This document shows positions 22,635-62,300 of a stretch of DNA of 64,000 nucleotides, in pieces. This DNA is from Lytechinus pictus. Its lineage: Eukaryota. The notes under the pieces are model-generated. The model saw only the letters and a list, made by a program, of their open reading frames with translations, was not told where the DNA came from and did no database searches. The first letter of the stretch is position 1, and every line of letters starts with the position of its first letter. The translations under genes were made by a program, and so were the position numbers. The DNA lies in the NCBI RefSeq assembly GCF_037042905.1, contig NC_087251.1:45882001-45946000 (forward strand), read 5' to 3'.

Positions 22635-25600
22635 ATGACAACAGGGTACTGATTTTCAAACTCCACATTTTTTTTTATAGAAGGCAAAAAGTCTAATAGC
22701 TTGTCATTTTTAGAGTGATATGTAAGCAGGTCAAACCCAAGGATGGCCAATTACCGGTACATGTACTAGTAAGTAAATGAAGTGATTTTTTTTTAATTAC
22801 AAGTAATGATTGATGATTTCTCATGACTTTTCAAAAGCTAATGAAAAATCAACAAAGAGGCTGAGAACGCATACATATGTTAATGAAATTCCCATGTGTT
22901 ATTTTTCCTTCCAGCTACCTGTCTTGCAGTAATTAATTTTTTTTTTACATTTTCTGATAGCCAGATTAGGGGCTGCTTCATAAAGGTGTCTGGATAGTTA
23001 TTCATACATGTTCTTTTGCTAAATGAGATAACTCCAAATTTAGAATGGTGTGTAACAAAGTGACAATGAATTTCCTGTGAGCCCTAATCAAATTGTCAAA
23101 TAATACACTTGGCCTTTAAATTGCTTATTAACAATATATTTCAACTTCAACTCATGTAAATTGTAATGAATGAGAATCTAAAGGTAAAAGAACATGCAGT
23201 AAAGTCACACACAACATCACAGCTTTATGGAATGACTCCTAGTAGCATGACAAATATTGCCTCAACAACCTGCCCATATTCATTTCTACTGTGTAATAAA
23301 AATCACCAAATTTTGCTTGAAAAGTATTTCTTTTAAATCAAAAGAGTAAAGCAAATGTAGATAACTGCAATAATCATATGTCATCTCGATAAAGCTTGTA
23401 ATTGCTGCAAACATCAAAGTTTTTTTTTGTTGAATGTCAGAAACCTTTTATTATTATTTTAGGTTAATTCTTGCATGCAAATTTATTGTACATACATTTG
23501 TACATGAATGTGTACATGTAGATGTAAATGATAGGGCATGTTGTTGTGTTGAATTGTGAGGCAAAACAAGATTTTAACAGAAAAGAAAAGAAAAATCTAT
23601 TTTTATAACTTGACTATGAAAGTCAACTTGTGCCTTTATGATACAAGGCAAAATTAAGAAGTGTTATGGAAAGATAAGATAAAAGAAACACAAAAGATAT
23701 GATTTACATTTCATTATGAGAAGACCTAGTTTTCTTTCATAGATTTCAGTGATCCGAGAAGTCTAATGGTTACTCATATATTTTCTATGAGGATTTTATA
23801 AAGAATAATATTTTGATGACAAACTTGTTATTTGAACACTATTCTAATACTGTATGGGTACAATTTTGGGCAAAGTAGATCATTTCAACCATGTTCATTT
23901 CAAATGCGAATTATGAATACAATATATTATCTTCATCGAAACAGATAAAAAGGTTCATAGATTAAACTATTTTTGAATAGCTTGTTTTTATACACATACA
24001 GTATGAGGAGCAACAGAACCCCTATTCAGATATATCACTTTTATTTACATAGATTTGAGGAGTCAAATATCAGTTTTAGAAAATGGACATTCTGTTATTG
24101 AAATAACCAAATACATGCTTACATCAGAATGGCACGTTTTCATGAACAGATAATGCTGCAATATTTTCTAAACCATCAACTCATTTTGCTCATTTGACAA
24201 ACATTGTAAAGTTGTACAGATGAGAACAGTGGGCACCTTCTTAAGATTTGAAGCTAAGAAGATCAATGGCAAATCGACCATGCGGCAACAAATTGCAGTT
24301 CAGCTCATTCTTAAATGAATAGAGTTCAAAACCTCCATAGGGAGATTTTGCATTGTTTAAAATTTTTAATCAAAATGTTCGAGAAATCATGACAGTTTTT
24401 GAAGCATATTGCCTACAATTATTTAATTGTCTTTCCAACAGATCAATCTCATAAGGAGTTGAATCTGTAACAAGAAGCAGTACCAGTAGTACATAAAGCC
24501 ACTGGCAAGGTTTGAACGTAAGATTGCCAACAATCGGCATAACGATCTCTTTCATTGACTTCCTCTTGAAAGCTTCAACTCGTATTAAAATATAATAATA
24601 AGTCATATAATTTTATCAAAAAATATATGACTTATAAAAGCTGGTGAAATATCATTCACCAGCCAAATATATTATAAATAGTATTGTTATATTTTCACTT
24701 TGATTGGTGTGACATCTGCCAACATTTTATGTTTTGGGTTGGATGTATTGGATGTTGAGTGAAATTGCAAATATAAAAGAAGTTTAAGAAAAATAACCAT
24801 TGACTTTTGTTTCATTTGTTGGAAGTTAGAATTAAAAAAATAAAGAAACGTACATCTAGTACCAGTATTTAAAAGTGGCATACATGTATGCTACATACAG
24901 TATACAACAAAAATGACTGAGATGACATGGGTCTTCAGAGAGAAAAAGAAAATAAACTCTTGCACTTGTATTATGATTATCAAATGATTATCAAAAACCA
25001 TAAAAATGATAGGCACATAATACACCATGAAGAAAATTATATTCACCACTAATAGAGGACATGTGCCCCCACCTCCTTCCAACTCTCTTGATACAACATA
25101 ATACTCCTGCAACAAAATCCAAATTGTTATGGTTTCAAAATGCACAGTCCCCTGTCTAATACAGAAAGGTTGATTACAATTTAGGCAATCCATACAAAAT
25201 TTTCCTGATTTGTTTCTTTCATAAAGCCGTTTGTGAGTTTCACAAGACTTTTTGAATGACTGGTGACTGTTTCTAGTGGTAAATGAAACATATATCCCAA
25301 ATAATGATTGGTGGTGAATATAATCTCCCAAGTAAGGGTCACCAATAGTATGTGAATTAATGACGCAGTCACATTTCCCCTACGCGAGTCGAAAACAGCC
25401 GTTTTATTAATTTTTATTCAAACCACCTTTATGAAGCTGGTAAAAAAAATGTTAAAACGGCCATTTTCGACTAACTGTACGGTTGCCATAGGGGAAATGT
25501 GACTGCTTTATGAAGCATCCACCAGAAGCTAAACAAGCAAAATGAAGAAACTCTTAGATTAAACCTGAATAAGCCTAGTTACCACCTGAAAGCAGGTACC

Positions 25601-30399: not shown

Positions 30400-33300
30400 A
30401 TGGCAAAGAACAATCCGAGGAGGATCAAGCACATTTTCTTGACTGGTCCTCCAGGTAAAGAAAGAAAAGTTACTTTGATAGTTTGAAATATTTATATATG
30501 GTCGTGGAGTTCAACTTCAAGATCAAGACAGTTGCAGTCCAACAACATACCTAGGGATACCTAGGGAAGTTTCTGAATGTAGGCAAGTTATGCCTCTGTA
30601 TTCAGTTCTAGGTTTTTCCTCCTCAAGATGGCTGGCTCACTTCCGGGAACAGGGCTTTCGTAGTCATATTTTATTGGCTCATTTTTCCAGCATCTATCCA
30701 GGGCAGCTTCAAAACTGTGCACACTTGGGGCAGTGACAACTTCATTATTTAGGCTATTCCATGTCTTACGTATTCTAACATAAAAAGAATTCCTATATTT
30801 CTGGGTCTTTGTCCTTGGTATGAACAATTTTTTACTGTGACCTCTGCCAGGCTCTGGTATGTTCACTATATTTTTCTTCTAAATTAAGTTTTGTACATAG
30901 ATCATAATTATTAAAGTGTTTATATGTTTCAATCATGTCACCCCTAACTCTTCGATACGCCAGAGTTGGGATTTTTAACTGTTTAAGTCGTTGTGGATAG
31001 GAAAGCTTCCTTAATTCTGGGACTAATTTTGTTGCCCTTCTTTGTACGTTCTCTAATGCATGTATATGTTTCTTCAGTACGGGGTTCCACACAGCATGGG
31101 CATACTCAACTTGTGGTCGGACAAGCGACTTATACAACAATGCAAAGTTATTTTTGTCTAGATAAACAAAAGTTCGTCTGATCAAACCCATTAGCCTGTT
31201 GGCCTTGTTTATCTTAGATTGCATGTGCTCTTCAAAGCTGAGTTTATCATCAATTACAACACCCAAGTCCCTTTCGGAGGTGACATGTTCAAGCGTATCA
31301 TTCATTAAAGTGTATGCAAAAGCTTCCTGTCGGTCCTGCGTGTTACTAATAGAGAGTACACTACATTTCTTGGGGTTGAATTTCAGCAGCCATTTTTCTG
31401 ACCAGCATTTCAGATGGTCAAGATCACTCTGGAGGGAATTGCAATCATTCTGATCTCTTATATACTTGAACAACTTGGTATCATCAGCAAAAAGATAAAC
31501 GTTACTTCCAGTAACAACATCTGGGAGATCATTAATATGTAACAAAAATAACACAGGTCCAAGGACACACTCCCTTGCGGAATTCCGCTATCTACATGTC
31601 CCCAACTTGAGAACTCGCCATTCACACACACTCTCTGTCTCCTTCCAACAAGAAATGCCTCGATCCAACTAATCACCTTTTCATTTATACCAAAACTACG
31701 GACCTTTTCAAGCAGTCGACGGTGAGGTACCTTGTCAAAGGCCTTCATAAAGTCTAAATAAATTACATCGATTGTACCCCTTTCTTCAAGAGCTTTAGAC
31801 CACTCATCAACGACATTAAGCAACTGAAGCATAGTAGAACGACCAGGCAAAAAACCATACTGCCTATCACTGAAAAATCTATTTGAATTCATATGATCAA
31901 GGATCTCATTGCGTAAAATGGATTCCAAAAGTTTACAAGCTATACATGTAAGGCTTATCGGCCTATAATTTGATGGAAGTGATCTATCACCTTTTTTAAA
32001 AACAGCACTCACATTGGCAGATTTCCAGTCACAGGGAACAACACCTTTCTGCAAAGAGGTTTGGTAAATGATACTCAAAGGTAGAGCAATTGCTGGAGCT
32101 ACTTCACGTAAAGTCCTAGGATGGAACCCATCTGGCCCTGGAGACTTGGAAACATCAAGTTTGGAAAGCAAAGAAAGGACATTATCTTCATTTACCACAA
32201 TTTCACCAAAATCTTCAACTACACTATGCTGAGCAGTGGTAGGAATATCACCAGGAGGCTCAGTGGTATAAACAGTAGAAAAATAATCAAGTAAAATGTC
32301 TGCTTTATCTCGATCTCCCTCAGCAAGTTCAGCTGTTTGTGGATTCCTAAGAGATGCCACTCCAGTTCTAATCTTTGTTTTGAAATGCGCATATTGCCAA
32401 AATCTCTTTGGATTCAATTTAACTGCCTTAGCGATATTTTTTTCATAGTTTTTCTGGAGTCGTCTAGTAGCTGTTTTGACCCTATTTCGAAGCCTGTTAT
32501 AAGTCAGACTCTGTCTGGTCAGACTCCTGTGTGGACTCTTATGGAAGATCAAGTTGAATTACCAATACCACTTACCAGTGTCTGAGATGGTTAATGGACT
32601 TCATTATCATCATCAGAAGCCTGAGACATGTGAGAAGGGGGGGGGGGCAGGGATACACGTAAAGAGGAGCTAGTTGTATCATTAATTGGTTTCAAGTTTG
32701 ATTAAAGGGGGGGGGGGTATGCACAATCACAGAAAGAAAAAATGTCAATAGATTTTCTGCATTGTTGCATATTACAGTACCGGCTCAGCACCTAGTGAGT
32801 GACTTTTCAGGACCAATTTCATTTTATGTTTGATGCTATAAAAATTGACCTATAACAGTAACACCAACACCAAAACTAAAAGGTAAAAAAAAAGTTGACT
32901 TGAAATCACCCATTATCAAACCAACCACACCCAACAAGGCTGTGTCGATCGAGCTCAGAAAGAAATTTTAGGATCATTAAAAGTTTTCAGTCATGTATTT
33001 TTTAATTCATACATTACTTATTGCGATTGCAGGAGTTGGAAAAACAACTTTGGTGAGGAAAACCTGTTCTGAGCTGATGTCAAGATCAATTCCACTTCAA
33101 GGTTTCTACACAGAGGAACTAAGAGAGAGTGGAAAGAGGACGGGCTTCGACATCATTACATTGGATGAACAAAGAGGTTCATTAGCAAAAATTGGGTAAG
33201 TATTTGAATTTGAAGAATAGAGACTACCTAATTTTTAAGGTTCAACTTTGAGTCAATCAAAGGGGCAAGGAGATGTACACGTATGTAACATGTTAAAGAA

Positions 33301-37786: not shown

Positions 37787-39056
37787 ATAAGATTTTGGGT
37801 TCAATGTCACATGGTGAGTAATAACGATCTGTAATAGTGGAGTCTTATAAGGCTAGAAAACCTCTCTGGGAGGGGCAATCATTTCTCACTAGCAAAAAAA
37901 AAAGAAAAAAAGAGGTCATTTCTGGAATCACTGTCCAGTCGAAATTAATCTCACAACTAAAAAAAAAAGGGTTAAAGGTCACTACCATTAAGCATAAGAA
38001 AAAGATTATGAGGAGGGGGGGGGGTAGTCTGTCCCCATTTCCCCCTTCGGGTAATCTAGTGATTTGGAATTAGCCCATTTACCATTTGCGAGGTTTTCAG
38101 TTAGGCTATACCTATTGGGGTTGCAATCGGATTTCTTAGATGGACAATTAAAAGGAAATGAATAAAGAATTTTTACAAAAATGTATATACAGGTAGTTTT
38201 TTAGTGAAATTATGAAGCAGACTATCCATTTTTAAAAGTGATAATTCTGGTATTATCTGCCCCAAATCCCCTCCAAACTGTAAATCTGGTTTGTAATTAA
38301 TAAAGAAGTTAAATGAATAATGAAGTAAAACAAAAATCATGGTTTTTATGAGAACCATATGTAATAACTCCCTTGACATTTTCTTAAAAGAGTAAATGAT
38401 GCTGATGATCTTAAGATGACGAGACATTCTCTTCTCCTTCTTCTTCTTTTCCTTCTCTTCCTTCTTCGATCTTCTTCCGTTATCAGAGAGTCGCTTTCCA
38501 TCATTAGAGAGTCACTTAATAGGGGTACTATAACAACGATCTTTTTTTCAGCTTTCTTTTACTTTTTTCTTTCTTTTTATTTTCTCTTGTTTATTATTTT
38601 TTTTCAGGGTATCAAAAACATTGATTTTGAAAGATTGGCAATGGTCAATTGCAGGGCCAAACGTATTTAGGGTATTTTTTTTTTAAAGACTAGCCAAACG
38701 TGTTTAGGATATGTTTCCCCCCAAGCTTTTTCCCCTAGCTGCATGGGTCATATTCTGGCGACAACTTGTTTAGGGGCCAAAATGTGCAAGTAAAGCCCGC
38801 GAAAGAACGTGTTTAGGGGGTTATTTTGCACACAGAGACAAACGCGTTTAAGGGGTGTTCGGAAAAAATTTGGCCACGCATGTGTACAGCAATACATTTA
38901 ATTCCCCCCCCCCCCAATATAGGGATATTGATATCTCGAGATATTGTGTGCATTGTAATTTTTTCCCTTTTGTTTTGAAACTTAGGAGCTATCGTAGTTC
39001 TCTTAAAAACGTGTGTGTTGAAGGTGTTGAAGAAAAAGCAAAAAATATATCGAAGC

Positions 39057-42000
39057 ATGGCCCGATCAAAAAGGAGATTTCGAGGAGGTGGCACTGGTCA
39101 GAAGAAAAAGAGAAGGAAAATAAGTCTAGAGAAGATCAGCAAATGGAACAAGGAGCGCATTGAACGAGAAAAACTGCGGTAAGTTAAAAAAGATGTCGTC
39201 CCAGGCCAGTCGCGGCCGACCTTTTCTCTCACAGTCACAGTCCCACTAGCCACTGCCTGTATTTCGTGCACGGGTGCAGTCAGTGTACCGGTACGCGGTA
39301 GTCTCTAACTAAGCCCGCACACTGCACTGGCACTGATTCGTTACTACTACTAGTACACTAGATCATATCACTCACACAACATGCGAGGTTAGTATACTAA
39401 CCTCGCACAACGCATGTGATTTCATATTGCATTTTGACGTTTTCATTCATCACACAAATGTCAGGGAATGAAACACGGCAAAAAGTTCAACATATTTTAT
39501 TTCCTAGGTCCTATACGTAATGAATTTAAGGAGGCGCGATAGCTCCAATAGTAATATATACTAACCTCGCAATACGTGTGAGTGCGATAGCTCAGACCTC
39601 AGTCGGTAGAGCGGGGGATTCGTATTCCAGTGACCCGGGTTCGATTCCCACTTGGTGCGCTAATGCCCTTTGGTAAAGGCATTAAACCTCATTACCAGGT
39701 CCTTCGGAGAGGACCTTAACTTAAGCCGTCGGTCCTCTGGTTGCTTGCTTACAAGCATTCATGCTTTCTTAGCAATCAGGTAAAAAATCCCCACCAATCA
39801 ATCACCAAAGTACAACAATCATCTAGCTTGATTTTAATTATAATTATAAATTTATTCGAAATTATTTGTAAAAATGATTTTTTAATGCTTACCTCCAAAT
39901 TTTGGCCAAGATACTCCGTCTGTCCGTCCAAGTACTGCGGTGGAAATCACGCAAACAACAATTGAAATGCGATTTTTCCTATCGAACAGTCTCGATTTAA
40001 GTTGTCGGCGCATAGGAAATTGTAGAAAAAAAATCAACAGGTTGCATTTCATGTATATACTTATAGGTAAAGTACGCCATCTTTTGACAGATGATGATGA
40101 AAGTAGATTGAACGAGCAAGAAAATAATGCCGAGCGCCTAGAAAGTAGAATGCAGCTACAAGCTGCAGACAAACGGTACAAACCGGCATATGAATAACAT
40201 CGCGCACTCACACTATTGCGAGGTTAGTATATGCTATACGAATCTCGCACAACCAACCTGTTTTTGTAGTGGATTTTAGAGTTGTCGTTAACATCGCTTC
40301 ATAACGTGAATGATGTAAGCCGATACCCATTCCGCTACTCACCAGGGCTTTCTCTGGTAGAAAGCGTTCCATTATCAATTTTTAACATATTTTTTTAATT
40401 TAAAAAGGACACAAAAAAGAGCAAAATCACTTACCTCTGCCTGGAAAGTGGCTTCGCACGTCTCTTCCACGGAAATAAAAGGAAGGTCGTTGGTGGCTCT
40501 AATACAGTTCGCAACCTTAATTCAGCTTGGTGGTATTTTTTAAACTAGATTCATGATTCATTGTTTGCACAATTCCAATAATTGTTTGATAAAATAGAGA
40601 CCCCAATAAATGCAATAACTTAAAAAACATACTTTTTTATTATTTTTGCTGACGATAATACTTTTTGGAAATATTCAAAACGATGACAAATTAAACAAAA
40701 AATATAGAAAATTCTATGTACCTTGAACAAAGCCCCGCAAGTGCTACCGTTCGTTTGTCAATTAACGTTCCACCAAAGTCTTTACAGTAAAAAGATTGAA
40801 CACTTTGCCGACTTCGCGTAACGCTTTGCATCGATTTACGTGTAAGATAATTTCTGTGTCTAGTCTTTCAATTGTGACTTTGATATGAAGATAAATCGCG
40901 CGCCCTCTTTCGCTCGTTAGACAAAAAATTTGAGAGCTAGAAAGGTAGCTCTCGTATTTTGTCAACGAGAAGAAAAATCAACGCTTAAATGACACATTTT
41001 GAGGGATATTCATCAAATTATGAGGAATTGACTTCACATCGTTTCGTAAGTTTCGTAGGAGGACTTCATTCTGTAAGTCCTCGTATTAATTTTTCGTAAA
41101 TTAACGTTATTTGTTGAATGCGCCGTGCCTTCAATTATTCTGTAGTCGGCGGCTGAGATGTAGCCGTGGGTGAATATCGCGTGCCCTCTTTAGGCAAAAA
41201 CTGATGTCCACGCTGTTCAGGAGGCATCTACGCGAAGATCAAGCAAAAATGCTTTTTTTTTAATTAAAAAAAACAGCAAAGAGAATTCAACAAACGATCC
41301 ATATGGTTCGGTAAGTGTCATAGCACAATTAGAAATCTTAGCTATAATGATATGTCATAGTTATTTCAGCAAAAAGGGTGTGAAAGATTCGCGTGCACCA
41401 GGTGCATATGAATCCTTCGCACGCGAGATGAATTGAACCCATGGGTGAGATCATATGAGTGAACTTAGACCCTTTCCGAATTTCAAAGAAATTGTAAGAA
41501 CATTTGATATGAATATTCCAACCAATGAAATCTTAGCAATCGCGATATGCGTGCTGTAGCCTGCCCTTAGCTTGGCGAAAAACAAAGAAATCAAGATGGC
41601 GACGTAAAATAAAACGGTGGCAAGTTTTCCCCCGTCTTTTCAATATATTTTTCTCATTTTTAATGAATTCTTGTTTCAAAATGAAATCAAAACTTGCCAC
41701 CGACACCGTGTTTACATCGCCATCTTGATTTCTTTGTCTTTCGCTGTAGCTATAGTCTTTCGCTGTAGCAGAATTGCGTCGCAGGCTCGCAGCACTCGCA
41801 ACCCACTAGTTAGAAATCCACTGCCAAATGCAGTTCTTTGTATGATGAGGTTAGTATAACCTCGCACTAGTGTGAGTGCCTCTAGTCTAATGCTTTTTAG
41901 TAGAAATGCTGTTTTTTTTTTATGGAAATGTCTACCTGTGGACACTGTTGTCTGTTGTACTGCTCTGTTTTGACCACATCGGTACTAGAAGTGAAGGAGA

Positions 42001-45000
42001 CAGTCCCAAGACAGTATCAATCGTGATTGGTCATGAAAAAGAAAACACTAATAAGCGAAGGTCACAGCCAAAGGCAAAAGACCCCATTTGGCCAGGCACT
42101 GAAATTTCAATTACTCGAGGAGTCTTCATTTTCTGATGTCTTTTTGTTTCTTTTTCATCTAGATATGCAAAGAAAGAGGAAACTCAAGAATACAAGACAG
42201 CTGGACCATCCACAGCATTTCAAGAGGTAAATATCATTTAAAATATATGTTGATCAGGTCCAGTGAAAGAATTATTCACTTTTGAAGAAGAAATAAATAA
42301 TTGTGTAAAAATAATAATTATGAAGAAATTTCCAGGGCTACTTCATCAGGTCACCTTCCAAACTTTGCTACATTGTATTACAGTTTACATTTGACCCTAT
42401 TGAAATTTCAGGGGCTCTTTTTTTGGTTAGTTTTCCAGGGCATTTGGGAGCATTTCTACGGTGAATAAGCCCTTTGCTCTGGTGTGATATTTTTCCTGCT
42501 CCTATACACTGTAGGTACGAAGGAACAAAGTAGATTTATGATCAATTATTGAAATTTGTGTGATGGATGGAGACATACCAGTACTACATTAAAACACTGT
42601 AATGATGAGACAAAAATAGAAACATCAATATCAATTTTTGAAAATGGAAACATTCTCTGCTAGCTAAAATTGCAGTTGCTTCATTGATATTTGCAACACT
42701 AAACTTTGCTGAATGTTTTGTGAAAAGGCAAACTAATTATACTTCTGAAACGTCAAGCACTTCAAAGTCCGAACTTCAAAGATGTTTTTACACGTTAGAA
42801 CTTTCATATTTAATTCAAAATGCAATTTATTGGAAAATTTGGTTGCATCAGATTGTGCAGGATGCTGTGGGCTTAAGGGCAATTCCATAGGTTGGTGGAC
42901 ATGAGCTCAATGTGTCTTTGTACATATAGCCCATCTGAACCGTAACGTGAGTAACCACTTTATCTGCACCCCTAGTAAAAACCATGTGTTCTTTATTTTT
43001 TGAATTATATACAAATTTGTCTCCCTAATATACTTCTTTGAAATGGATATAATCAACTTTCATAAAAACCTTGCATGAGGACACTTTTCACTTATGTCCA
43101 CTTTTCATTTTATGCATGTCCAAATAATGTAACATGAGTAACCGACACATTTCAAAGATTTGCCAGGAGCATAATGAAATTTCCCAAGTTTTGTTTTTAT
43201 ACAAAGGATAGTCAGACTGCATACTATGTTGTGATAAAGATATGTTTAGTTCCTATCAATAATAATGGAGTTACAGCTCCAAGTATGAGTCAAGGTGTCT
43301 CCAAATGTAACGTGAGTAACCGTGGAATAGCCCTTAAGGTAAAGGTATATTTCTTATTTCCGCTTAACATTTGCATTGTAAAGAGAGATTGTACCTTGTC
43401 TCTTGCAGGAATCGTCTTCTTCTGATGAGGAAGATCAACAGACGATGACCCCTTATCAAGAGCTGCTTGCTAATTTGGGTGCTGATGTGGCAGAGGATGA
43501 TGATCTGTCGGGTATGACATACATGTACATACTTAGAGGGTACTCCAGGCTAAAAATAATATTAACCGAGAAAATGAAACTAGCAAATTGATGAAAGTTT
43601 CATCAAAATCTGGAAAAATAAGGGAGTATTGAAGATTTAAAGTTCTGCAATCTTTGTGAAAACAGTGTTTGATATTTCAAGTCAGTAATGCTGATATATT
43701 GAATTGTGTAATGCAGGCTAAACTGCCAGGAGCATTTCACTTGTAAATCAGAAAAAAGTACCAATAATGATACTTTTACGTATTTTTGCTAGAAACCTGT
43801 AGGAGTTTGCATTGAGTTTTAAAATTTATTCATGTTCTGAAGCAATTTTAGATCTGACATGCTGTTAAAATACACTATGTAACCTCTGAACCCTGATATC
43901 ACAAATGTCTCAACAGACATATGAGACTTAAAAAGAAAAAAGTCATGAAAACGCTGTGGTGCAAGGCTTTCAAGTAAAGATATATCACAAAAAATGTAGC
44001 TGTATAGCTTTAATATAGCAAATTGTGCAAAAATGTTTGTTTGTTTTTCAGATGAGGAGGATTCTGAAAGTGAAATTGGAGATGAGGAAGGAGCCATTGG
44101 TGAAGATGGTGTCAACGATGATGAGGTTGATGATGATGATGACAGCGACCTTGAAGATGATGATGACGGCGCCATCGAAGATGATGACGACAGCGCCATC
44201 GAAGATGATGATGATGACAGCGACATCGAGGATGAAGAGGACAATGATGAAGAAATTGGGGAAGTTCAAACTGGAGAGAATGGATTATCAAGAAAAGGAG
44301 ATGGTGACAGCAATGGAGGAGAGGAGGGAGAAGAGGAGGAGGTGGGGGAAGAGGAAGAGGAAGGAGGAGAAGATGAAGAGGAACTTGCATCATCTAGTGA
44401 ATTAGATGATGATGACGATGGCAGTGACGATGGAAAAGACGACGATCAAGGACAAGTACACAAAGGTATCTAAGCATATATATGTCATCAACCATTAATT
44501 TGATAAAGATGCATAGGTTCACATCTCTAGAGACGTTATTGTTTCTTATTATTTCAATCTTCTTTGGCACCATTTAATTGCAACACTTAATTAACATGAA
44601 GCAGAGTTACATGCGATGATAGGAAATCCAACCTCCATCTGAGATCAGACCTGCCAACCAGTACGTTTTTGGCGTATTTAGTACGTTTTTTTTCATCTCT
44701 AAATGTCTCTATTTCATAAAACTTACACAAATATGGTTATTAGACCAATGTAATTTCAGGTAACTTGTTTTTTTTTCAATCATTTTGTTAAAACCAGGGT
44801 GAGATATACACATGTTTAAATGTTTTTTTTTTTCATCTGCAAGAGCAGTGCGCATTTTAGCTTGCATGCAGCTTGAGCGCCGCGATGAGCGAGTGCGCCA
44901 CACATTTTATTATGAAATACACTTTTTGGGGGAAAAATACAATTTTTTAAATCACAGAATACACTTTATCAATCCCAGAGGTTGGCAGGTCTGTGAGATG

Positions 45001-48000: not shown

Positions 48001-51000
48001 AATAATGGTAATGATAATAATAATAATAACAATTACAATAATAATAATAATGATAATAATGGTAATATGAATATTTGAAACACGCTGGTATCCATCATGA
48101 AAAGATACCCATGGTGCATTTAAGAATAGAAGAAATAAAATGGAAACCTAATTATAGAGAGGGAAGAATTGTATTTACTTAAAAGCTTGTGGGAACAACC
48201 AGGTTTGCAGTGAATTTTTGAAAGTGGTAAGACAAGAAATATTGCAGATGTCTTTTAGGAGTTTATTCCCTCGGAATGGCCCAGCATATTGAAATGATCA
48301 TTCCCCTGTGAATTATTAGATATTCTCAATCTTACCATTTATTTAGCAGATCATTTCCATATTTTAAAAGTCCATCTTATGAAACCCATTCGCCATGTAT
48401 GCGTAACAGAATACATGCATATTCAAATAGAATCCTATATATTTTCTTTTACTAAAAAAAATGATTTTAGATCCAGGAATGTTGTCCTGAAACACAACCA
48501 GATGTTGACAGCAAATCCAGATCTTGATACAGAGTAAGTAGAAGACAGCCCACCCCCGCCCCCTCTTTTTTTAGTGGAAGGCAATCTTACCCTATCACTT
48601 TCTAATCTAACTTGTTCTGTACTTCAAGGGAAACTCCACTCCCAACAAAAAGTCTATTTGAAGAATAGGAGAAAAATCATCAAGCACAAAACTGAAAATG
48701 TAATGAAATTCTAATGTAAAATAAATTTGGTTTATTTTCACAAAATGGGTAAATGCATACCATGGTGATATATAAATGCGGGATTTGATGATGCCACACA
48801 CGCCCTATTTCTTTTGTATTTATTGTCTGATTATACAATACTTCATATTTGCAGATTTTAAAATAAGGAAGCTCTTGAATCACAATGGGTTAAATCAATG
48901 TAACAGTTACCACTCTCCACCCAGGTGTAGTAAATGGGTAACCGGTAAGAGAGAATTCCTTGAATGCCGAATCGCCGATCAGTGTAGCAGTATTTAAGTT
49001 GGGGTAATAGTATGTAGTGCATAGAAACATTGTATAAAGCGCTATACAAATTTAAGATATTTTTATTACTATTATTACGTACATATTGTCATTAGCTTTC
49101 ATGGGAAGTAGATGATTATTTGCTGATCCCAGACTTTCAAGAAAGCATTGAAGATGCCTGCATCAGAGACGTCTTTGGGGAAAAGCAAAATCTGTGTCAT
49201 TGAGAAATTCTTTGGCAACGCCTTAGCCTCCGGTAACTGTCAGACTAGGAATTGGGATATAATGACTTTACCATAAGGCAATTTCCAGTGGCATTAGATA
49301 CTGTCTGCTGGTAGTCAATCTTGTTCCACTCTGGGTGATGCATATCAGAATGGTGTCAATTTCCCCATGAAAATAAAGGATAATCTGCTTTTAAACTGTT
49401 TGTCAACCTTACCAGGTCCATGAGGGATCGGGGTCTGACCAGACCAAGGGTCCTGATCCTAGTCCCGTTCAGAAGCTCGGCCCTGGAGGTCATCAAGACC
49501 ATGGCCAAGATCCTGGTCCCATCGAACCAGAGCATGAGCCACCGCAAGAGGTTCTTTGATGAATACGGAGCCGAAGATCGGAGACCGTCCAAGTTTCCCA
49601 AACCAGGTTAGAGAAGATAGGGGGTGTAAAGTAGAGAGGGAGAGTCTCAGTTGGAATCTTGGAATTTCTAGAGAATAATCAACTTTTGTATATGTCGAAC
49701 CCCCATTTCACTCCATTTTTACTTCCCTTCAAGAATTGCTCAAGCCATGATGATTTGAGAGCATAACAATCATCCAAATGAACTATAAGATTTTAGGAAG
49801 AGCCAATTCATATGGGATCGGACATACATATTTTATGGAAATGTCAAACTATGGTACCAGAAGTGACATGAATGCAACTTTATTCCTGAGGGGGCACAGT
49901 CCTTGGAAAAAAATAGTTGACGTCATGTCTCTTAGGGCACAATATTTGTTCTAGTACTTCATACTTTTGTATGTATTGGGTTTATTTATGTTATCTCTGA
50001 GAGATAATAGATTCTAGATTCTGTGGATGAACTTTTCTAGAATAGCATGGTGTAGACTACAACACTATGTGATGTGATGAGAACAATAATAATATATCTT
50101 GACTCTTGAGAGTGCAGAGTGTCTATATTAAAGGTCAAGTCCACCCCAGCAAAATGTTGATTTGAATAAGTAGAGAAAAATCAAACTAGCATAACGCTGA
50201 AAATTTCATCCAAATCGTATGTAAGATAAGAAAATTATGGCATTTAAAATTTCGCTTATTTTTCACAAAACAGTGATATGCACAACTCAGTGACATGCAA
50301 ATGAGTCAGTCGATGATGTCCATCACTCACTATTTCTTTTGTTTTTTATTGTTTGAATTATACAATATTTCAATTTTACAGATTTGACCATAGGAACCGA
50401 CTTGACTGAACCATATAGTATTAAACAATGCTAATTCAACATGTTCAGGGAAGAATTAATCACTTTTTCACTTGACAATGAGGAGAAAATTAGAATATTT
50501 CATATTCATATAATAAAAGACAAAAGAAATAGTGAGTGGATGATGTCATAGTCTCCTCATTCGCATACCAGCCAGGATGTGCATATAACTGTTTTGTGAA
50601 ATTAAGTGAAACTTTAAAATGTCATAACTTTCTTATTTTAAATCCGATTTTGATGAAATTTTCAGTGTTATGCTTGTTGGATTTTTCTCTTTTTATTCAA
50701 ATCCAACTTTTTGTCGGGGTGGACTTGTCCTTTAAGTACCACTTGTACTAGCGCAAATGTTTCATACCTTAACAGTACATGGCGCTTTAAAATGTATTCA
50801 GTATATTCATGCGCATTACAGTTGTGTTCTCATTGTTATTTTTGCTCATGTCATGCCCCAGCACACATGCCCCAGCACACATGCCCACAAATAATTTTCT
50901 GATCATTATGTTCGACTATTCCTCACTATGAGAAAAATCACATATACAGTGGTCTTCTTAACAGAGGTCTGTGCCATATGTAAATTGCTTACTGATAGGT

Positions 51001-54000: not shown

Positions 54001-57000
54001 CTATTTGCGATGTCCCTTCAGCGCCACCATAGAAATCAGATGACCAGTCATCTATTTTAGCGAATAGGAAAATGTGCTAATGACTGGTTCCATTGACTGG
54101 TCATGGATTTGAACCTTATACTATATGATCTGCAGTCAGACCATTACATTCAACAGGTTGGATGAAGAACTTAGTTTTCCTGTCACCAGTATGAGGTATC
54201 TTGGAAGTGATTTTCACTGACAAATTTGCTCTGAGCCAATCAGATGCAAGGATTTTGGTAGCTTATAACAATAGTCTGAAAATCATTCATGAAATGCCCC
54301 CAAGGACATCTACGTACATTTCTACTCAAGCTTCGTAAGTTTTGTTTTAAAAATATTTGAATTCATGGAGTCACTTTATTGAAGCAAATAGAAAATTTTA
54401 CTTCGCTATTAACCGTTTGATGTGATGTAGTATATAACCATTGTTTGTCAATTTAAAACACATTTCCTGAAAACACATCTCTTCTTGTCGTAATTGAAAT
54501 TGTATGTGATTTTGATTGATTTCTACGATTACATGTACCTTTATATGACTTAATTTTTGTTATGAAATGAAATGTATATGTTCGCTAATTTGTTATATGA
54601 TTTTATGTTATTCCTCTGTAAAGCGCTTAGAAACAATCGTCAAAAGCACTATAGAAAGGCAACATATTATTATTATCATTATTATTAGATTTACTTTTCT
54701 CTTTATCAGGAACAAGTACTACAGGCAAACCCTGATCTTCAGCAACATCAATACACCTGAAATCAATGCTCTTGCCAGCAAACACTGCTCAAATATCCTT
54801 TTCCACAAGCAAAATGAATTGATTTATAGTTTAAAGGACAAGTCCACCCCATCAAAAAATTCATTTGAATAAAAAGAGAAAAATCCAACAAGCATAACAC
54901 TGAAAATTTCATCAAATTCTGATGTAAAATAAGAAAGTTATGACATTTTAAAGTTTCGCTTAATTTCACAAAACAGTTATATGCACATTCTGGTCGGTAT
55001 GCAAATGAGGAGACTGATGACGTCATCCACTCACTATTTCTTTTGTATTTTATTATATGAAATATTCTAATTTTCTCCTCATTGTCAAGTGAAACAGTGA
55101 TTAATTCCTCCCTATACATGTGGAATTAGCATTGTTTAATACTATATGGTTCGGTCAAGTCTGTCCATATGGTCAAATCTGTAAAAAATGCAATATTGTA
55201 TAATTCAAACAATAAAAAACAAAAGAAATAGTGAGTGATGGACATCATCGACTGACTCATTTGCATGTGCACTGAGTTGTGCATATCACTGTTTTGTGAA
55301 AAATGAGCAAAACTTTTAAAGTGCCATAACTTTCGTATTTTACATCCAATTATGATGACATTTTCAGTGTTATGCTATTTTGATTTCTCTCTATTTACTC
55401 TAATCAACATTTTGCCAGGGTGGACTTGACCTTTAAGTAATAGAAGTCGTCTACATCTATTAGTAACACTGTATTGTTATATAACTCTTACTTATATTTT
55501 TATGTAACTTTTGCCCCTCTTTTAATATGTTTGTCTTTCTCTTCTTTAATGTGCCGTGAGTATCTTCTTGTGATGGATATTGGTGCAATACAAATGTCCA
55601 TAATATTGTTATTATTATTATTGTTATTATCATCATCATCGCCATCATCATCATCACCATCATCATCATCACCATGATCATCACCATCATCATCATCATC
55701 ATCATTATCATCATCATCATTATCATCATCATCATCATCACCATCATCACCATCATCATCATCATCATCACCACCATCATCATCATCATCACCATCATCA
55801 TCATCCCCATCATCCCCATCATCATCACCATCATCATCACCATCATCATCACCATCATCATCACCATCATCATCACCATCACCACCACCACCATCATCAT
55901 CACCATCACCATCATCATCATTATCATCATCATCATCATCACCATCACCATAACCATCATCATCACCATCACCATCACCACCACCACCATCATCATCACC
56001 ATCATCATCACCATCATCATCACCATCACCATAACCATCATCATCACCATCATCATCACCATCATCATCACCATCATCATCATCACCATCATCATCACCA
56101 TCATCATCACCATCATCATCACCACCATCATCATCATCATCATCACCATCATCATCACCATCATCACCATCATCATCACCATCATCATCACCATCATCAT
56201 CACCACCATCATCATCACCATCATCATCATCATTATTATAACAGGCACACAAATTATTATTTCCCTTAACATTTATGGTATTACATATGGCAGGCAGAGT
56301 GTTAGTAAACAATGTGCCTTCCCTCGGTAGCATTGGTCAAGTGGCTGTCCAATTACCTCAGGTCAGTTATGTTTAACATCTAAAATCTAAGAACTGGGGG
56401 TGTTTTCACTTAGATTTAGGAATGACTTATTGAGCATTGCAAGAAACTTACATTCAATTCAAAATCAATCAAGTCCCGAAATTCAAGCATTAATCTTATG
56501 ATGTAAAGTAAATTTACAGTTCATATACGTTCAGTTGCAAATTAACTTGATCGCAATGCCCAGGTGCACTTTATTGTGATACTTAAGCTTGATTTGCAGT
56601 TGAGCATAAGTTGTTTGTAATTCCCCGTTCATCATCATCATCATCTGCCGCAATCTTCAAAGGGCTCTGCAGCCTATCTCGAAGATGAAATTAGACTTGG
56701 ACGCACGTTATGAGGAGGAGTTAGAAGCAGTTTTTAAAATCCCAGTTGTGTGGGTGTAAACAAATTGCCACATTGGTCAAATCTGGGGGCTTTTCATGAA
56801 AGGACTTGTCAGACGTTTTATCCGAAAAGTCCTGTTTTATCCAACAGTTACCATAGTAACAGAGCCTCTCAGCCAATCAAAATCAATGAAAGTTGTCAGA
56901 CCTGACAAGAATGGACAAAAATGTTGATGAAACGCTCCCCAGATGCTAAGATCATGCTAAACTGACGTGCGCTACTTTGTATTAATCAACGAGATTGCTC

Positions 57001-60000
57001 ATTTAAGTATGACCTTGAGTCACTCTTAAATTATTGGGAAACACAACCAGGTTCTTTCAAATCTGATAATTGTGCATGCAGTGCTCTGTGTTGTCATGAA
57101 AATGCAACGCTTAAAAGTCACTGATAAAACTGCTCAGAGCAAAACACTTTACCTCAGTATCAAGTTCGATAAAACAAAAAAGGACAAGAATAAAACTGCA
57201 TATTAGCATATACATGCGGTATTGGCTGTAAGATTTTTGTCTATTTTCCCCTTACAATGTTGCATACCGGTATTCTTATACAATTGATGAAAGAAATAAA
57301 CATATTTGCCCTAGAAATTTGCATTACATGAATAATATAGTATCGATATATGGACTGCTATGAGAGGCATGGTTGTTTCTAGAGGCTCAAGGGGACCGCA
57401 ACGCGACTGCCTGAGGGCATGATCTGGCCGCAAAATTATTTTTCCACCGCAGTTCTGGAACAAAGTATAAATACTCATGACTAGATCTAGAACTACGTCA
57501 GATCTTTAGAAAGAGCTAAGGTTAGGTGAGATCTACATCTAAATCTGCTCAAACGTTAGTCATACTAGCGTCCCCAAAGGTAAACGTAGGCTTATTTCTA
57601 ACGTTAGCCGAATTCACCTTATTTTGCGAGTAACTTCAATAAGGCTTGAATTGATCCATCTGTCAAACATGTCATGATAAGTTCCCTTTAGATTCTTTCC
57701 AGTAATGTTCTTATTCTTGAACAATACTGGGGATAGAACAAGCCGGAGTCACGTAAATGCGCTAGTTGTCTAAAATTTTTGATTAAATCACGCTGACATT
57801 TATGGTAGCCGCAATCATTACAGAAAGCAACATTTTGCACGCAGTCAAATGGGGATCTCAGCCAAATTTAATTATGAAGTAGTTGAATGTTATATATTGG
57901 TTCTTCATTTTCCAGGTTTTCCACAAGGTAGAATGCGACAGCTTCGCTTCATCACATGAGAAGAGATTTCAATTCTTCATCTCAAAGGTATGTACATCGA
58001 GTCTGAGTGTATGTATAAACAGAATGCTATAAGTTTGAATGTGTCTTAAATCGATCACGTCCCAGATCTACCTTGGAAGAAGAATATGATATTTACATTC
58101 AACTCTCTCTGCCTACTCATTGGGTTTAGTACGGCTCCATCTACCACACCCGGGACCACACCTCGCGCAAATCGTACTCTTAACATGTAGTGTTGACTGT
58201 TGGGGCAAAAAGTATATCCTTTATAAAACATTTTACTCTTTTTTTATACCCTCGCAAATTTGACCCTTAACACATAGGCCTGGCTTTCTAAGCGAAATAG
58301 ATGCCCTTTTTTCATTATTTCAGTGTTTTTGACAACCTTATTACGTTACCTACGTAAAGGCCCTATCTTGAAAAAGACATCCTTTTTACGTGTTTTTTTG
58401 GTCGCGCATGGTATCCATTCATCAATGCAAGTGCCCCCCCCCCCTCCGGGTTGAGAATCAGCTCTTAATTTTGAAATCTAACTAGATTCAGGAAATATTC
58501 TTTATTTTGCAGATCCTTCCCCAATATCGAGAATCTCTGATGTCAGGGACCATGATCTACATTCCCTCTTACTTTGACTTTGTTCGTGTTAGAAACTACT
58601 TCCGCAAACAGGAGATCAACTTTGCACAAATTTGCGAGTGAGTACACTGAGCTTGACTGTTGAAATCCTAAAGCCCTAGGCTGGTGAAGGAGATTAATCT
58701 TTGTTTTGCAGAGGGATAACGGGATATTAAAGCAGTAGATTTGGCATTAGTTTTATTTTACAGAAGGTTACTTTATATGTATTATTATGTCTCTGCCTAC
58801 CGTAGATGGTTGCTAAAGGCATGTTTTCTGGTTGTCTGTCCGTTTGTCCCATTTTGTTGCGCATTGTAGTACAATAAAATACAGAAGAAAAAAAAATGAG
58901 TGGGTAACATTATTGGATCCCTCATTTGTACACTGACCAAGATGTACGCATAACTGTTTTGTGAATTGAAGAGAAACTTTTGAATTCAATATCTTTCTTA
59001 TTTTGGAGGCTTTGATGAAATTGTCAGCATTTAACTTGTTTGATTTTCTCTTTTTATTAAAACCAACTTTTAAGCATATATTGTAAAATGTAAATTATAC
59101 TTATTTTACGCCTTTTTGTCTCACCTGCATAGCAGAGTGAGACTATAGGCGCCGCTTTTCCGACGGCGGCGGCGGCGTCAACACCAAATCTTAACCAAAG
59201 GTTAAGTTTTTGAAATGACAGCATAACTTAGAAAGTATATGGACCTATTTTATGAAACTTGGCCATAAGGTTAATCAAGTATTACTGAACATCCTGCCTG
59301 AGTTTCATGTCACATGACCAAGGTCAAAGGTCATTTAGGGTCAATGAACTTTGGCCGAATTGGGGGTATCTGTTGAATTACCATCATAACTTTGAAAGTT
59401 TATGGATCTGATTCATGAAACTTGGACATTATAGTAATTAAGTATCACTGAACATCCTGTGCAAGTTTCAGGTCACATGATTAAGGTCAAAGGTCATTTA
59501 GGGTCAATGAACTTTGGCCGAATTGGGGGTATCTGTTGAATTACCATCATAACTTTGAAAGTTTATGGATCTGATTCATAAAACTTGGACATAAGAGTAA
59601 TCAAGTATCACTGAACATCCTGTGCACATTTCAGGTCACATGACAAAGGTCAAAGGTCAATGAACTTTGGCCATAATGGGGGTATCTGTTGAATTACCAT
59701 CATAACTTTGAAAGTTTATGGATCTGACTCATGAAACTTGGACATAAGAGTAATCAAGTATCACTGAACATCCTGTGCGAGTTTTAGGTCACATGTTCAA
59801 GGTCAAAGGTCATGTAAGGTCAATGAACTTTGGCCATGTTGGGGGTATTTGTTGAATTACCATCATATCTCTGTAAGTGTATTGGTCTAGTTCATAAAAC
59901 GTGGACATAAGAGTAACCAAGTATCACTGAACATCTTGTGCGAGTTACAGTAGTTTTCAAAGTCAGCACTGCTGCTATATTGAATTGTGTGATGCAGGTG

Positions 60001-61876: not shown

Positions 61877-62300
61877 GTGGTTGGTATCAAAGGCAACACC
61901 GAATTTGGAGAAGAGTGTCCACATCTTAGTGTCAAGAGATGCTAGTGGTTGGAATCAAAGGCAGAACTGAACTTGGAGGACAGTGTCTACATCTTAGTGT
62001 CAAGAGATGCTAGTGATTGGCATCAAAGGCAGCACTTTACTTGGAGAAGAGTATCCGCATCTTTGTGTCAAGAGATGCCACTGGTTGGCATCAAAGGCAA
62101 CACTGAAATTGGAGAAGAGTGTCTGTGTCAGAGGGTCAACAGATGCCAGTGGTTGGAATCAAAGGCAACACTGGACTTGAAGAAGAGTATCCGTATCTTA
62201 GTGTCAAGAGATACCACTGGTTAGTGTCAAAGGCAACACTGAACGTGGAGGACAGTGGCTGCATCTTAGTGTCAAGAGAATGCCAGTGGTTGGTATCGAA
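61877..62300 (+). repeat. 68-bp minisatellite, 6 full units plus a partial, downstream of the UTP25 stop codon
   Basis: Units start at 61877, 61945, 62013, 62081, 62149, 62217 and 62286; consensus GTGGTTGGNATCAAAGGCAACACTGAACTTGGAGAAGAGTGTCCNCATCTTAGTGTCAAGAGATGC(C/T)A. Confidence 0.95.

What the first reader, a model, noticed from the sequence alone, without database searches (positions are those of the whole stretch)
39369..41880. Nested array of a palindromic recombination-site-like motif (TGCGAGGTTAGTA|TACTAACCTCGCA) in UTP25 intron 1
Seen: a perfect 26-bp palindrome at 39382-39407. Further half-sites lie at 39559-39571 (forward), 40217-40229 (reverse), about 40238-40249 (degenerate forward), 41846-41856 (reverse) and 41857-41866 (forward). 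Four of them extend into a shared GTGTGAGTG outer arm. 39556-39586 and 40203-40232 form a 30/31-identical inverted pair enclosing about 670 bp. Half-sites repeatedly sit back to back, and the two outermost ones (39369-39394 and 41857-41880) face outward. Inference: one palindromic site was split at its centre and about 2.46 kb of cassette-like units accumulated there by repeated insertion into the element's own ends. That resembles site-specific, tyrosine-recombinase-type integration (Crypton-like non-autonomous elements) more than random cut-and-paste insertion. No recombinase is encoded in this window.
Basis: partly seen in the sequence, partly recalled or inferred. Interest (0 to 1): 0.72.

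Follow-up and report, generated by a model that had tools for sequence, protein, structure and literature searches.

The report
Stacked transposon ends in an intron
A 2.5-kb stretch in a gene's first intron is a real pile-up of related, gene-less jumping-DNA pieces whose two kinds of ends always sit back to back, which hints at movement by a cut-and-rejoin enzyme but is not proven from this one place.

Summary
The motif cluster is real. All seven half-sites are at the stated places. A profile built from six of them finds no comparable site in the other 61.5 kb, and the 26-bp palindrome exceeds 100 of 100 shuffles. There are two end classes. A ends carry the GTGTGAGTG arm; B ends lead into a related body of about 95 bp. 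All three back-to-back junctions pair A with B, and the three junction regions align as one module of about 150 bp (67-70% identity). Best reading (0.42): gene-less Crypton-type units with a built-in mirror of their circle junction, moved by a tyrosine recombinase encoded elsewhere. This scan noted that layout earlier for Cryptons of this genome and of another (unchecked). Main rival (0.30): TA/TATA-targeting cut-and-paste MITEs stacked end to end. Against the best reading: junction spacers vary (6, 13, 3 bp), only one of three B bodies folds significantly, and 6 of 7 searches for predicted partner ends failed. No genome, second locus, empty site or enzyme was available, so the mechanism is inferred.

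The parts
39057..39178 (+). Candidate first coding exon of the host gene (probably UTP25); the intron 39179-42162 holds the array
   Evidence: ATG, GT donor and AG acceptor read in frame; Utp25_C at 61500-61769; link of this exon to UTP25 inferred
39306..39319 (+). E0, a possible eighth, degenerate half-site facing E1 (core 39310-39319, 8 of 10)
   Evidence: p 0.027, 1 of 7 such tests; weak
39354..39362 (+). Outer motif shared (8 of 9, inverted) with 41881-41889; TA lies outside both
   Evidence: read; TA direct repeat
39369..39396 (-). E1, A-type end (half-site plus GTGTGAGTG arm)
39382..39407 (.). J1, perfect 26-bp palindrome: A end and B end back to back, 6 bp between the 10-bp cores
39393..39515 (+). 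E2 and B body Z1: bulged hairpin 39400-39509, followed by TATA at 39512-39515
   Evidence: DNA fold z -2.54, 1 of 200 shuffles as good; stem score p 0.02
39556..39586 (+). E3, A-type end; left arm of the 30/31 inverted pair; no partner site on its left
39583..39805 (+). tRNA-headed, SINE-like insert just inside E3 (A-box-like and B-box motifs, short CAAT-repeat tail); limits approximate
   Evidence: T-arm match at 39637-39649 (E 0.05, below gathering score); not called by ARAGORN; SINE label rests on general knowledge
39816..40202 (.). x, body between the A ends; CpG observed/expected 1.38; no recognisable protein
40203..40232 (-). E4, A-type end; right arm of the 30/31 inverted pair
40217..40249 (.). 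J3, A|B junction with a 13-bp spacer holding two TATA motifs 3 bp apart
40235..40352 (+). E5 and B body Z2, related to Z1 and Z3; hairpin visible by eye but not significant
   Evidence: fold z -0.59; p 0.15
40353..41556 (.). y, CpG-rich non-coding stretch between the B ends (CpG observed/expected 1.33)
41557..41763 (.). Separate small inverted-repeat element (arms 41575-41608 and 41711-41744, 94%) that abuts or interrupts the Z3 body
41764..41858 (-). E6 and B body Z3 (about 15 bp shorter than Z2)
41844..41866 (.). J4, B|A junction with a 3-bp spacer
41857..41889 (+). E7, A-type end with arm and outer motif; CpG richness ends here

Best explanation
The array is made of gene-less (non-autonomous) DNA elements of a Crypton-like design. 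A unit has a body bounded by two inverted A ends and a tail bounded by B ends. The A|B junction between body and tail is built in, and it is the mirror image of the joint that forms when the unit's outer ends meet in a circle. The most complete candidate unit is 39557-41858 (A>x<A | B>y<B), flanked by TATA on both sides. A short relative lies at about 39306-39515 and an A stub at 41857-41889. Shown: the ends, their two classes, their alternation, the TATA repeats and the relatedness of the three junction regions. Inferred: a tyrosine recombinase encoded elsewhere binds the 10-bp arms, exchanges strands in the TATA-containing core, excises a circle and inserts it where a similar half-site already lies, so that units gather at one another's ends. 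The changed spacers at J3 and J4 would be later decay.
For: 3 of 3 back-to-back junctions are A|B, and the pieces alternate A, B, A, B, A. The three junction regions align over about 150 bp at 67-70% identity, motifs included. With the core excluded, B bodies are related in 2 of 3 pairs (Z2-Z3 p 0.002-0.005, Z1-Z2 p 0.004-0.014), while none of the 12 A-B pairs is below p 0.06 (21 comparisons in all). J1 has 10-bp arms and a 6-bp spacer, near the 11-13 / 6-8 layout given for tyrosine-recombinase sites. The 4-bp TATA direct repeats match the '4- or 6-bp direct repeats' of Cryptons (PMC3212892, passages). The B body behind J1 is a bulged hairpin that closes near a second TATA. All 7 sites that score 12 bits or more lie in 2.5 of 64 kb. 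An internal region complementary to both ends is a described feature of DIRS tyrosine-recombinase elements (PMC6681497, passage).
Against: No recombinase gene or remnant: no Pfam hit above cut-off in 18 frames from the array (3, 15), and an exhaustive search with the 103-aa frame gave 1 hit, a tandem-repeat artefact. Spacers are 6, 13 and 3 bp, so two of three junctions are not valid recombinase sites now. Partner ends predicted by the short-unit reading were not found in 6 of 7 tests (p 0.33-0.98). Z2 and Z3 do not fold better than shuffles, an A-side stretch folds almost as well as Z1 (z -2.2), and consensus folding found no long common hairpin. Z1 and Z3 bodies are not detectably related when compared directly (p 0.78-0.93). 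Published animal Cryptons are said to have no terminal repeats (PMC3212892 section 8). TATA is palindromic, so it cannot be assigned to arm, target duplication or crossover core without empty sites. Everything rests on one locus.
Confidence: 0.42

Rival explanations
1. Two families of ordinary cut-and-paste MITEs (A-ended 39561-40227, B-ended 40239-41854, plus a short B hairpin) share the tip of their terminal inverted repeats and one DDE transposase. They insert at TA or TATA. Each insertion leaves a new TATA at its ends, so later copies land there and stack back to back in an open, promoter-near intron.
For: Both complete pairs have inverted ends with TATA directly repeated outside. J1 is exactly two ends sharing one TATA, and J3 is two ends at two TATA motifs 3 bp apart; only J4 needs a small deletion. 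MITE multimers and self-insertion are described (PMC5172404, passage). Unrelated inserts (the SINE-like piece, the 41557-41763 element) sit in the same zone, which is CpG-rich next to a promoter.
Against: It does not predict strict alternation: 3 of 3 mixed junctions has about a 1-in-8 chance if types were independent (my arithmetic). It does not explain the A stubs at both flanks. No isolated copy of either family lies in the other 61.5 kb. No transposase was linked.
Confidence: 0.3
2. One reading: a small palindromic element of about 75 bp (outer ends at 39354-39362 and 41881-41889, TA outside) was opened at its centre. The B hairpin and then the larger pieces were added there one after another, by either enzyme type.
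For: E1 and E7 face outward and share an extra outer motif (8 of 9) that E3 and E4 lack. TA is directly repeated outside 39356..41887. E1-E7 similarity beyond the core is p 0.018-0.036. CpG richness ends near 41800-41900.
Against: The A|B junction also occurs inside (J3), with homology on both sides of it, where no split is possible. E2 has no significant partner end (p 0.46). E1 may have its own partner at E0. No empty site was seen.
Confidence: 0.15
3. Rolling-circle elements (Helitron or Helentron type). The A arm is the short 3' hairpin, and E1 and E7 are 3' ends. The array is a composite of captured ends.
For: Each A arm can form a 6-bp stem with one G-T pair. At E1 and E7 it is followed by CTAG then T, the canonical Helitron 3' end (PMC4067079, passages); the chance of such a motif in 15 nt is about 0.05 per end.
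Against: E3 and E4 lack it (2 of 4). No 5' TC end after A and no T-rich flanks were found by eye. It does not explain the 30/31 inverted pair or the B ends. The motifs are absent from that paper's 10 supplements.
Confidence: 0.07

Closest known systems
Non-autonomous CryptonA elements of animals (Kojima and Jurka 2011, PMC3212892; e.g. CryptonA-1N1_OL; CryptonA-2_SP as autonomous relative)
   Same: Gene-less short units; 4-bp direct repeats at the boundaries; a site shaped like two inverted arms around a short spacer.
   Different: That paper found no terminal repeats in animal Cryptons and describes no internal junction copy or end-to-end array (passages, section 8 and supplement 1 read). The motif is absent from its 6 supplements. 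No recombinase is linked here.
DIRS-type elements with an internal complementary region (as defined in PMC6681497)
   Same: An internal stretch complementary to the start of the left end and the end of the right end, as J3 is for E3 and E6.
   Different: DIRS are retroelements with RT, RNase H and recombinase genes. Nothing here codes, and each half has its own pair of inverted ends.
MITE multimers (Tourist, Castaway, Gaijin; PMC5172404) and TA-targeting Tc1/mariner MITEs
   Same: Short non-coding pieces with inverted ends, TA or TATA repeated outside, inserted beside or into one another.
   Different: Here every junction joins unlike ends within 3-13 bp, and the junction region is conserved as a block on both sides.
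CryptonV (target-specific Cryptons, cited in PMC8869645)
   Same: Site-specific insertion by a tyrosine recombinase in animals.
   Different: The reported targets are microsatellites. The primary description (Repbase Reports) could not be read, so end structure was not compared.

Membership tests
Crypton (tyrosine-recombinase DNA transposon) | Encodes, or is a derivative of an element that encodes, a tyrosine recombinase (DUF3504 type in CryptonA) | tested here: inconclusive
   No such domain in 18 frames of the array or in an exhaustive search with one frame. The genome was not held, so a parent element could not be sought.
Crypton (tyrosine-recombinase DNA transposon) | 4- or 6-bp direct repeats at the boundaries | tested here: met
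   TATA on both sides of E3..E6, E3..E4 and E5..E6; not specific, because TATA is palindromic.
Crypton (tyrosine-recombinase DNA transposon) | No terminal inverted repeats on the whole element | tested here: inconclusive
   Depends on the unit. The A piece alone has 30/31 inverted ends. The composite 39557-41858 has unlike ends that share only 12 bp, TATA included.
Crypton (tyrosine-recombinase DNA transposon) | Recombination site of two 11-13-bp inverted arms around a 6-8-bp spacer | tested here: inconclusive
   J1 is 10-6-10; J3 and J4 have 13- and 3-bp spacers.
Crypton (tyrosine-recombinase DNA transposon) | One copy of the direct repeat at the empty site; circular intermediate | not testable with these tools
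   No genome was held and no reads were laid on the locus.
TA-targeting DDE MITE (Tc1/mariner type) | Terminal inverted repeats | tested here: met
   30/31 for the A piece; about 65% over 75 aligned bases for the B arms.
TA-targeting DDE MITE (Tc1/mariner type) | TA duplication proven against an empty site | tested here: inconclusive
   TA and TATA flank both pieces; no empty site.
TA-targeting DDE MITE (Tc1/mariner type) | Many dispersed copies and a DDE partner with the same ends | not testable with these tools
   0 further copies in the other 61.5 kb; no genome.
Academ | 3-4-bp (AcademX) or 9-10-bp (AcademH) target duplication (PMC10045372) | tested here: inconclusive
   No 3-, 9- or 10-bp direct repeat at any of 10 boundary offsets for 6 pairings; only 4-bp TATA or ATAT. 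Pairing A with B as left and right ends gives crossing, non-nestable elements. The AcademH paper was not held.
IS3EU/GingerRoot | TA..TA termini with a 6-bp target duplication (PMC10045372) | tested here: not met
   TA termini can be drawn, but there is no 6-bp direct repeat at any offset tested.
Helitron | 3' hairpin about 11 bp before CTRR, followed by T | tested here: inconclusive
   Present at E1 and E7, absent at E3 and E4 (2 of 4).
Helitron/Helentron | 5' TC after A, or insertion in T-rich (TT) sites with subterminal repeats | tested here: not met
   The ends are flanked by TATA, not by T runs; no matching 5' end was seen (by eye).

The most novel reading that the evidence does not exclude
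An animal tyrosine-recombinase element family carries two inverted copies of one recombination site (the circle junction and its internal mirror) and inserts site-specifically into such sites of earlier copies. It builds ordered A|B cassette arrays, somewhat as integrons stack cassettes. Its 26-bp palindrome would be a working recombination site for a sea-urchin recombinase, and the circle would resemble the yeast 2-micron plasmid in holding two inverted sites (that comparison is recalled, from no call).
Probability: 0.17. Interest if true: 0.78.

Novelty: new variant of a known kind. Interest (0 to 1): 0.4.

Why it matters
The ends and the insertion mechanism of animal Cryptons are poorly defined: the founding paper found no terminal repeats in them. 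If this family is Crypton-type, it offers a short, symmetric, testable recombination site and a case of self-targeted array building in an animal genome, which could also be of use as a site-specific tool. If it is a stack of TA-targeting MITEs, it is an unclassified but ordinary repeat cluster.

Tried and rejected
No genome was held, so copy number and junction types could not be counted. Pattern scans: viral contigs 0 and 0; prokaryote genomes 0; metagenomes 1 match, inside a bacterial-looking coding region and without the TATA or B context, rejected as chance. Sequencing-run search for 38950-42300: 14 of 21 listed runs hold a part, none half, highest share 0.28. The shares would fit flanks only, repeats only or a related species alike. 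Rfam at gathering scores: 0 in the window. At E up to 10 in 39250-40300: 2 weak matches, a microRNA model on the Z1 hairpin and a T-arm, taken as shape only. ARAGORN found no tRNA in the array, and Tandem Repeats Finder no array there. The 103-aa frame in x: 1 hit among 1.84 billion representatives, a tandem-repeat protein, rejected. A common long hairpin in all three B bodies was not supported. A reading of A and B as short and long Academ ends (a shared 4-mer lies about 10 bp further in for B) was rejected as too weak and topologically crossing. Earlier scan notes held no look-alike stretch. Repbase and Dfam could not be searched.

Full report
What was checked. The finding is a cluster of one short motif in 39369-41880. 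I read the region, listed repeats, counted the motif against shuffles and scanned the whole window. No whole genome was held and no reads were laid on the locus, so everything below rests on one locus plus papers. The host is an animal gene region. 'Sea urchin' comes from earlier scan notes on the same genome and from my recall of its repeats; I did not test it.

The 26-bp palindrome at 39382-39407 is the longest in the window; 100 shuffles reached at most 22. The exact 10-nt core occurs 5 times (shuffle mean 0.05, maximum 1), the arm GTGTGAGTG 4 times, all in the array. A profile made from six of the sites gives 7 places at 12 bits or more, all in the array; shuffles give 1.5 on average. The pair 39556-39586 / 40203-40232 is 30/31 identical. 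Utp25_C is found at 61500-61769. The array lies in a GT..AG intron, 39179-42162, behind an ATG exon; that this exon is UTP25 exon 1 is inferred.

The seven ends fall into two classes. A ends (E1 39391 -, E3 39562 +, E4 40226 -, E7 41857 +) carry the arm 3-4 bp after the core. B ends (E2 39398 +, E5 40240 +, E6 41853 -) lack it. In order they read A|B, gap, A..A|B..B|A. All three back-to-back junctions join unlike ends, with 6, 13 and 3 bp between the cores. Six of seven ends have TATA one base outside the core; E7 has TA next to its core.

The three junction regions align as one module of about 150 bp, with 96/137, 76/114 and 79/113 identical aligned bases, motifs included. With the core left out, the B bodies are still related in 2 of 3 pairs: Z2-Z3 p 0.002 and 0.005, Z1-Z2 p 0.004 and 0.014, Z1-Z3 not significant. 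None of 12 A-B pairs falls below 0.06. There were 21 comparisons, so this is moderate evidence. The first B body folds as a bulged hairpin (z -2.54 on the + strand, -1.27 on the -; p 0.02) that closes just before a TATA at 39512. The other two do not fold better than shuffles, and consensus folding found no long shared stem. A degenerate half-site at 39306-39319 may be the partner of E1 (p 0.027), but the other 6 of 7 searches for predicted partner ends failed. E1 and E7 share an extra outer motif with TA outside it.

CpG observed/expected is 0.9-1.75 from 39000 to 41800 and drops to 0.17-0.42 just after. The block therefore looks like young inserted DNA or an unmethylated promoter-side zone that ends where the array ends. 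It also holds a tRNA-headed SINE-like piece and a separate inverted-repeat element at 41557-41763. No frame in it resembles a known protein.

How it most likely works. The strict A|B pairing and the relatedness on both sides of the junction are best explained if the junction is part of the moving unit. The stretch 39557-41858 then reads A>x<A | B>y<B with TATA directly repeated outside. Joining its outer ends would give a junction whose mirror image is J3. An internal region complementary to both ends is known from DIRS tyrosine-recombinase elements (PMC6681497, passage). Cryptons have 4- or 6-bp direct repeats, are thought to move as circles, and their enzymes typically use two 11-13-bp arms around a 6-8-bp spacer (PMC3212892, passages; PMC13465315, passages). 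J1, at 10-6-10, is close to that. Earlier scan notes report the same layout for Cryptons in this genome and in another. They changed my reading, but they are unchecked AI notes, I could not compare sequences, and they count as leads only. I infer a gene-less Crypton-type family moved in trans, which inserts where a similar half-site already lies (0.42). The enzyme, the circle and the self-targeting are not shown.

Rivals. Two MITE families with a shared tip and TA or TATA targets explain the junction letters with fewer later changes: J1 is two ends on one TATA, J3 two ends on neighbouring TATA motifs. MITE multimers are described (PMC5172404, passage). This reading does not predict the alternation (0.30). 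A Helitron reading fits E1 and E7 only (PMC4067079, passages) (0.07). Academ and IS3EU duplication lengths (PMC10045372, passages) were not found, apart from 4-bp TATA or ATAT.

What is in print. I read passages of PMC8869645 and PMC5753468, section 8 and supplement 1 of PMC3212892, and searched the supplements of PMC3212892 and PMC4067079 for the motifs without a hit. Full-text searches for Crypton with palindromes, hairpins, circles, tandem arrays or an internal complementary region (listings only, apart from the papers named) showed no paper describing this layout or this motif. That library lacks most subscription journals, Repbase Reports and the AcademH paper. Repbase and Dfam were not searchable, and supplements of other papers were not seen, so the family may already be catalogued.

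Verdict. A real, non-random stack of related mobile-DNA ends with an unusual strict A|B order. The most likely class is a non-autonomous Crypton-like element, with stacked TA-targeting MITEs close behind. Interest 0.40; new variant of a known kind. The boldest reading, recombinase-built cassette arrays in an animal, has probability 0.17 and would deserve about 0.78.

Noticed in passing
window 41557-41763: Small inverted-repeat element with 94% arms. The arms begin 18 bp inside a TAG on the left and 8 bp inside a CTA on the right, a 10-bp difference like the long and short ends noted for Academ elements in this genome. A 15-bp duplication lies at its right end (41736-41750 and 41755-41769). No target duplication was found for these limits.
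   Followed up: partly
window 39533-39593: A 10-bp direct repeat (39536-39545 and 39584-39593) brackets E3. The left copy looks like the start of a second tRNA-type head. Unexplained.
   Followed up: no
window 40090-40197: After an AG, a 35-codon stretch ends in a stop 6 bp inside the arm of E4. Splice-donor-like motifs lie on the minus strand near 39890 and 40430. Possibly remnants of a parent element's gene; the 103-aa frame holding it had no real homologue.
   Followed up: partly
window 60459-60660: The tRNA-Gln called by ARAGORN runs on into sequence that looks like a SINE body, so it is probably a SINE head, of another family than the one in the array.
   Followed up: no
window 30832-32558 (-): Frames resembling a CR1/L2-type LINE reverse transcriptase, broken by a frameshift (label by recall, not scanned).
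   Followed up: no
window 50128-50735 and 54831-55436: Two 91% identical copies of a self-complementary element of about 610 bp, in opposite orientation, with fragments elsewhere in the window.
   Followed up: no
window 19248-19579: Four tandem copies of about 84 bp that appear to include an exon end and its splice donor, in a nucleoside-transporter-like gene (gene label by recall).
   Followed up: no
window 59222-59950 and 61877-62297: Tandem arrays of a 163-bp unit (4.5 copies) and a 68-bp unit (6.2 copies).
   Followed up: no
window 3922-4383, 16459-16639, 25217-25514: Several copies of a hairpin-shaped repeat of about 175 bp; two lie 110 bp apart at 3922-4383.
   Followed up: no
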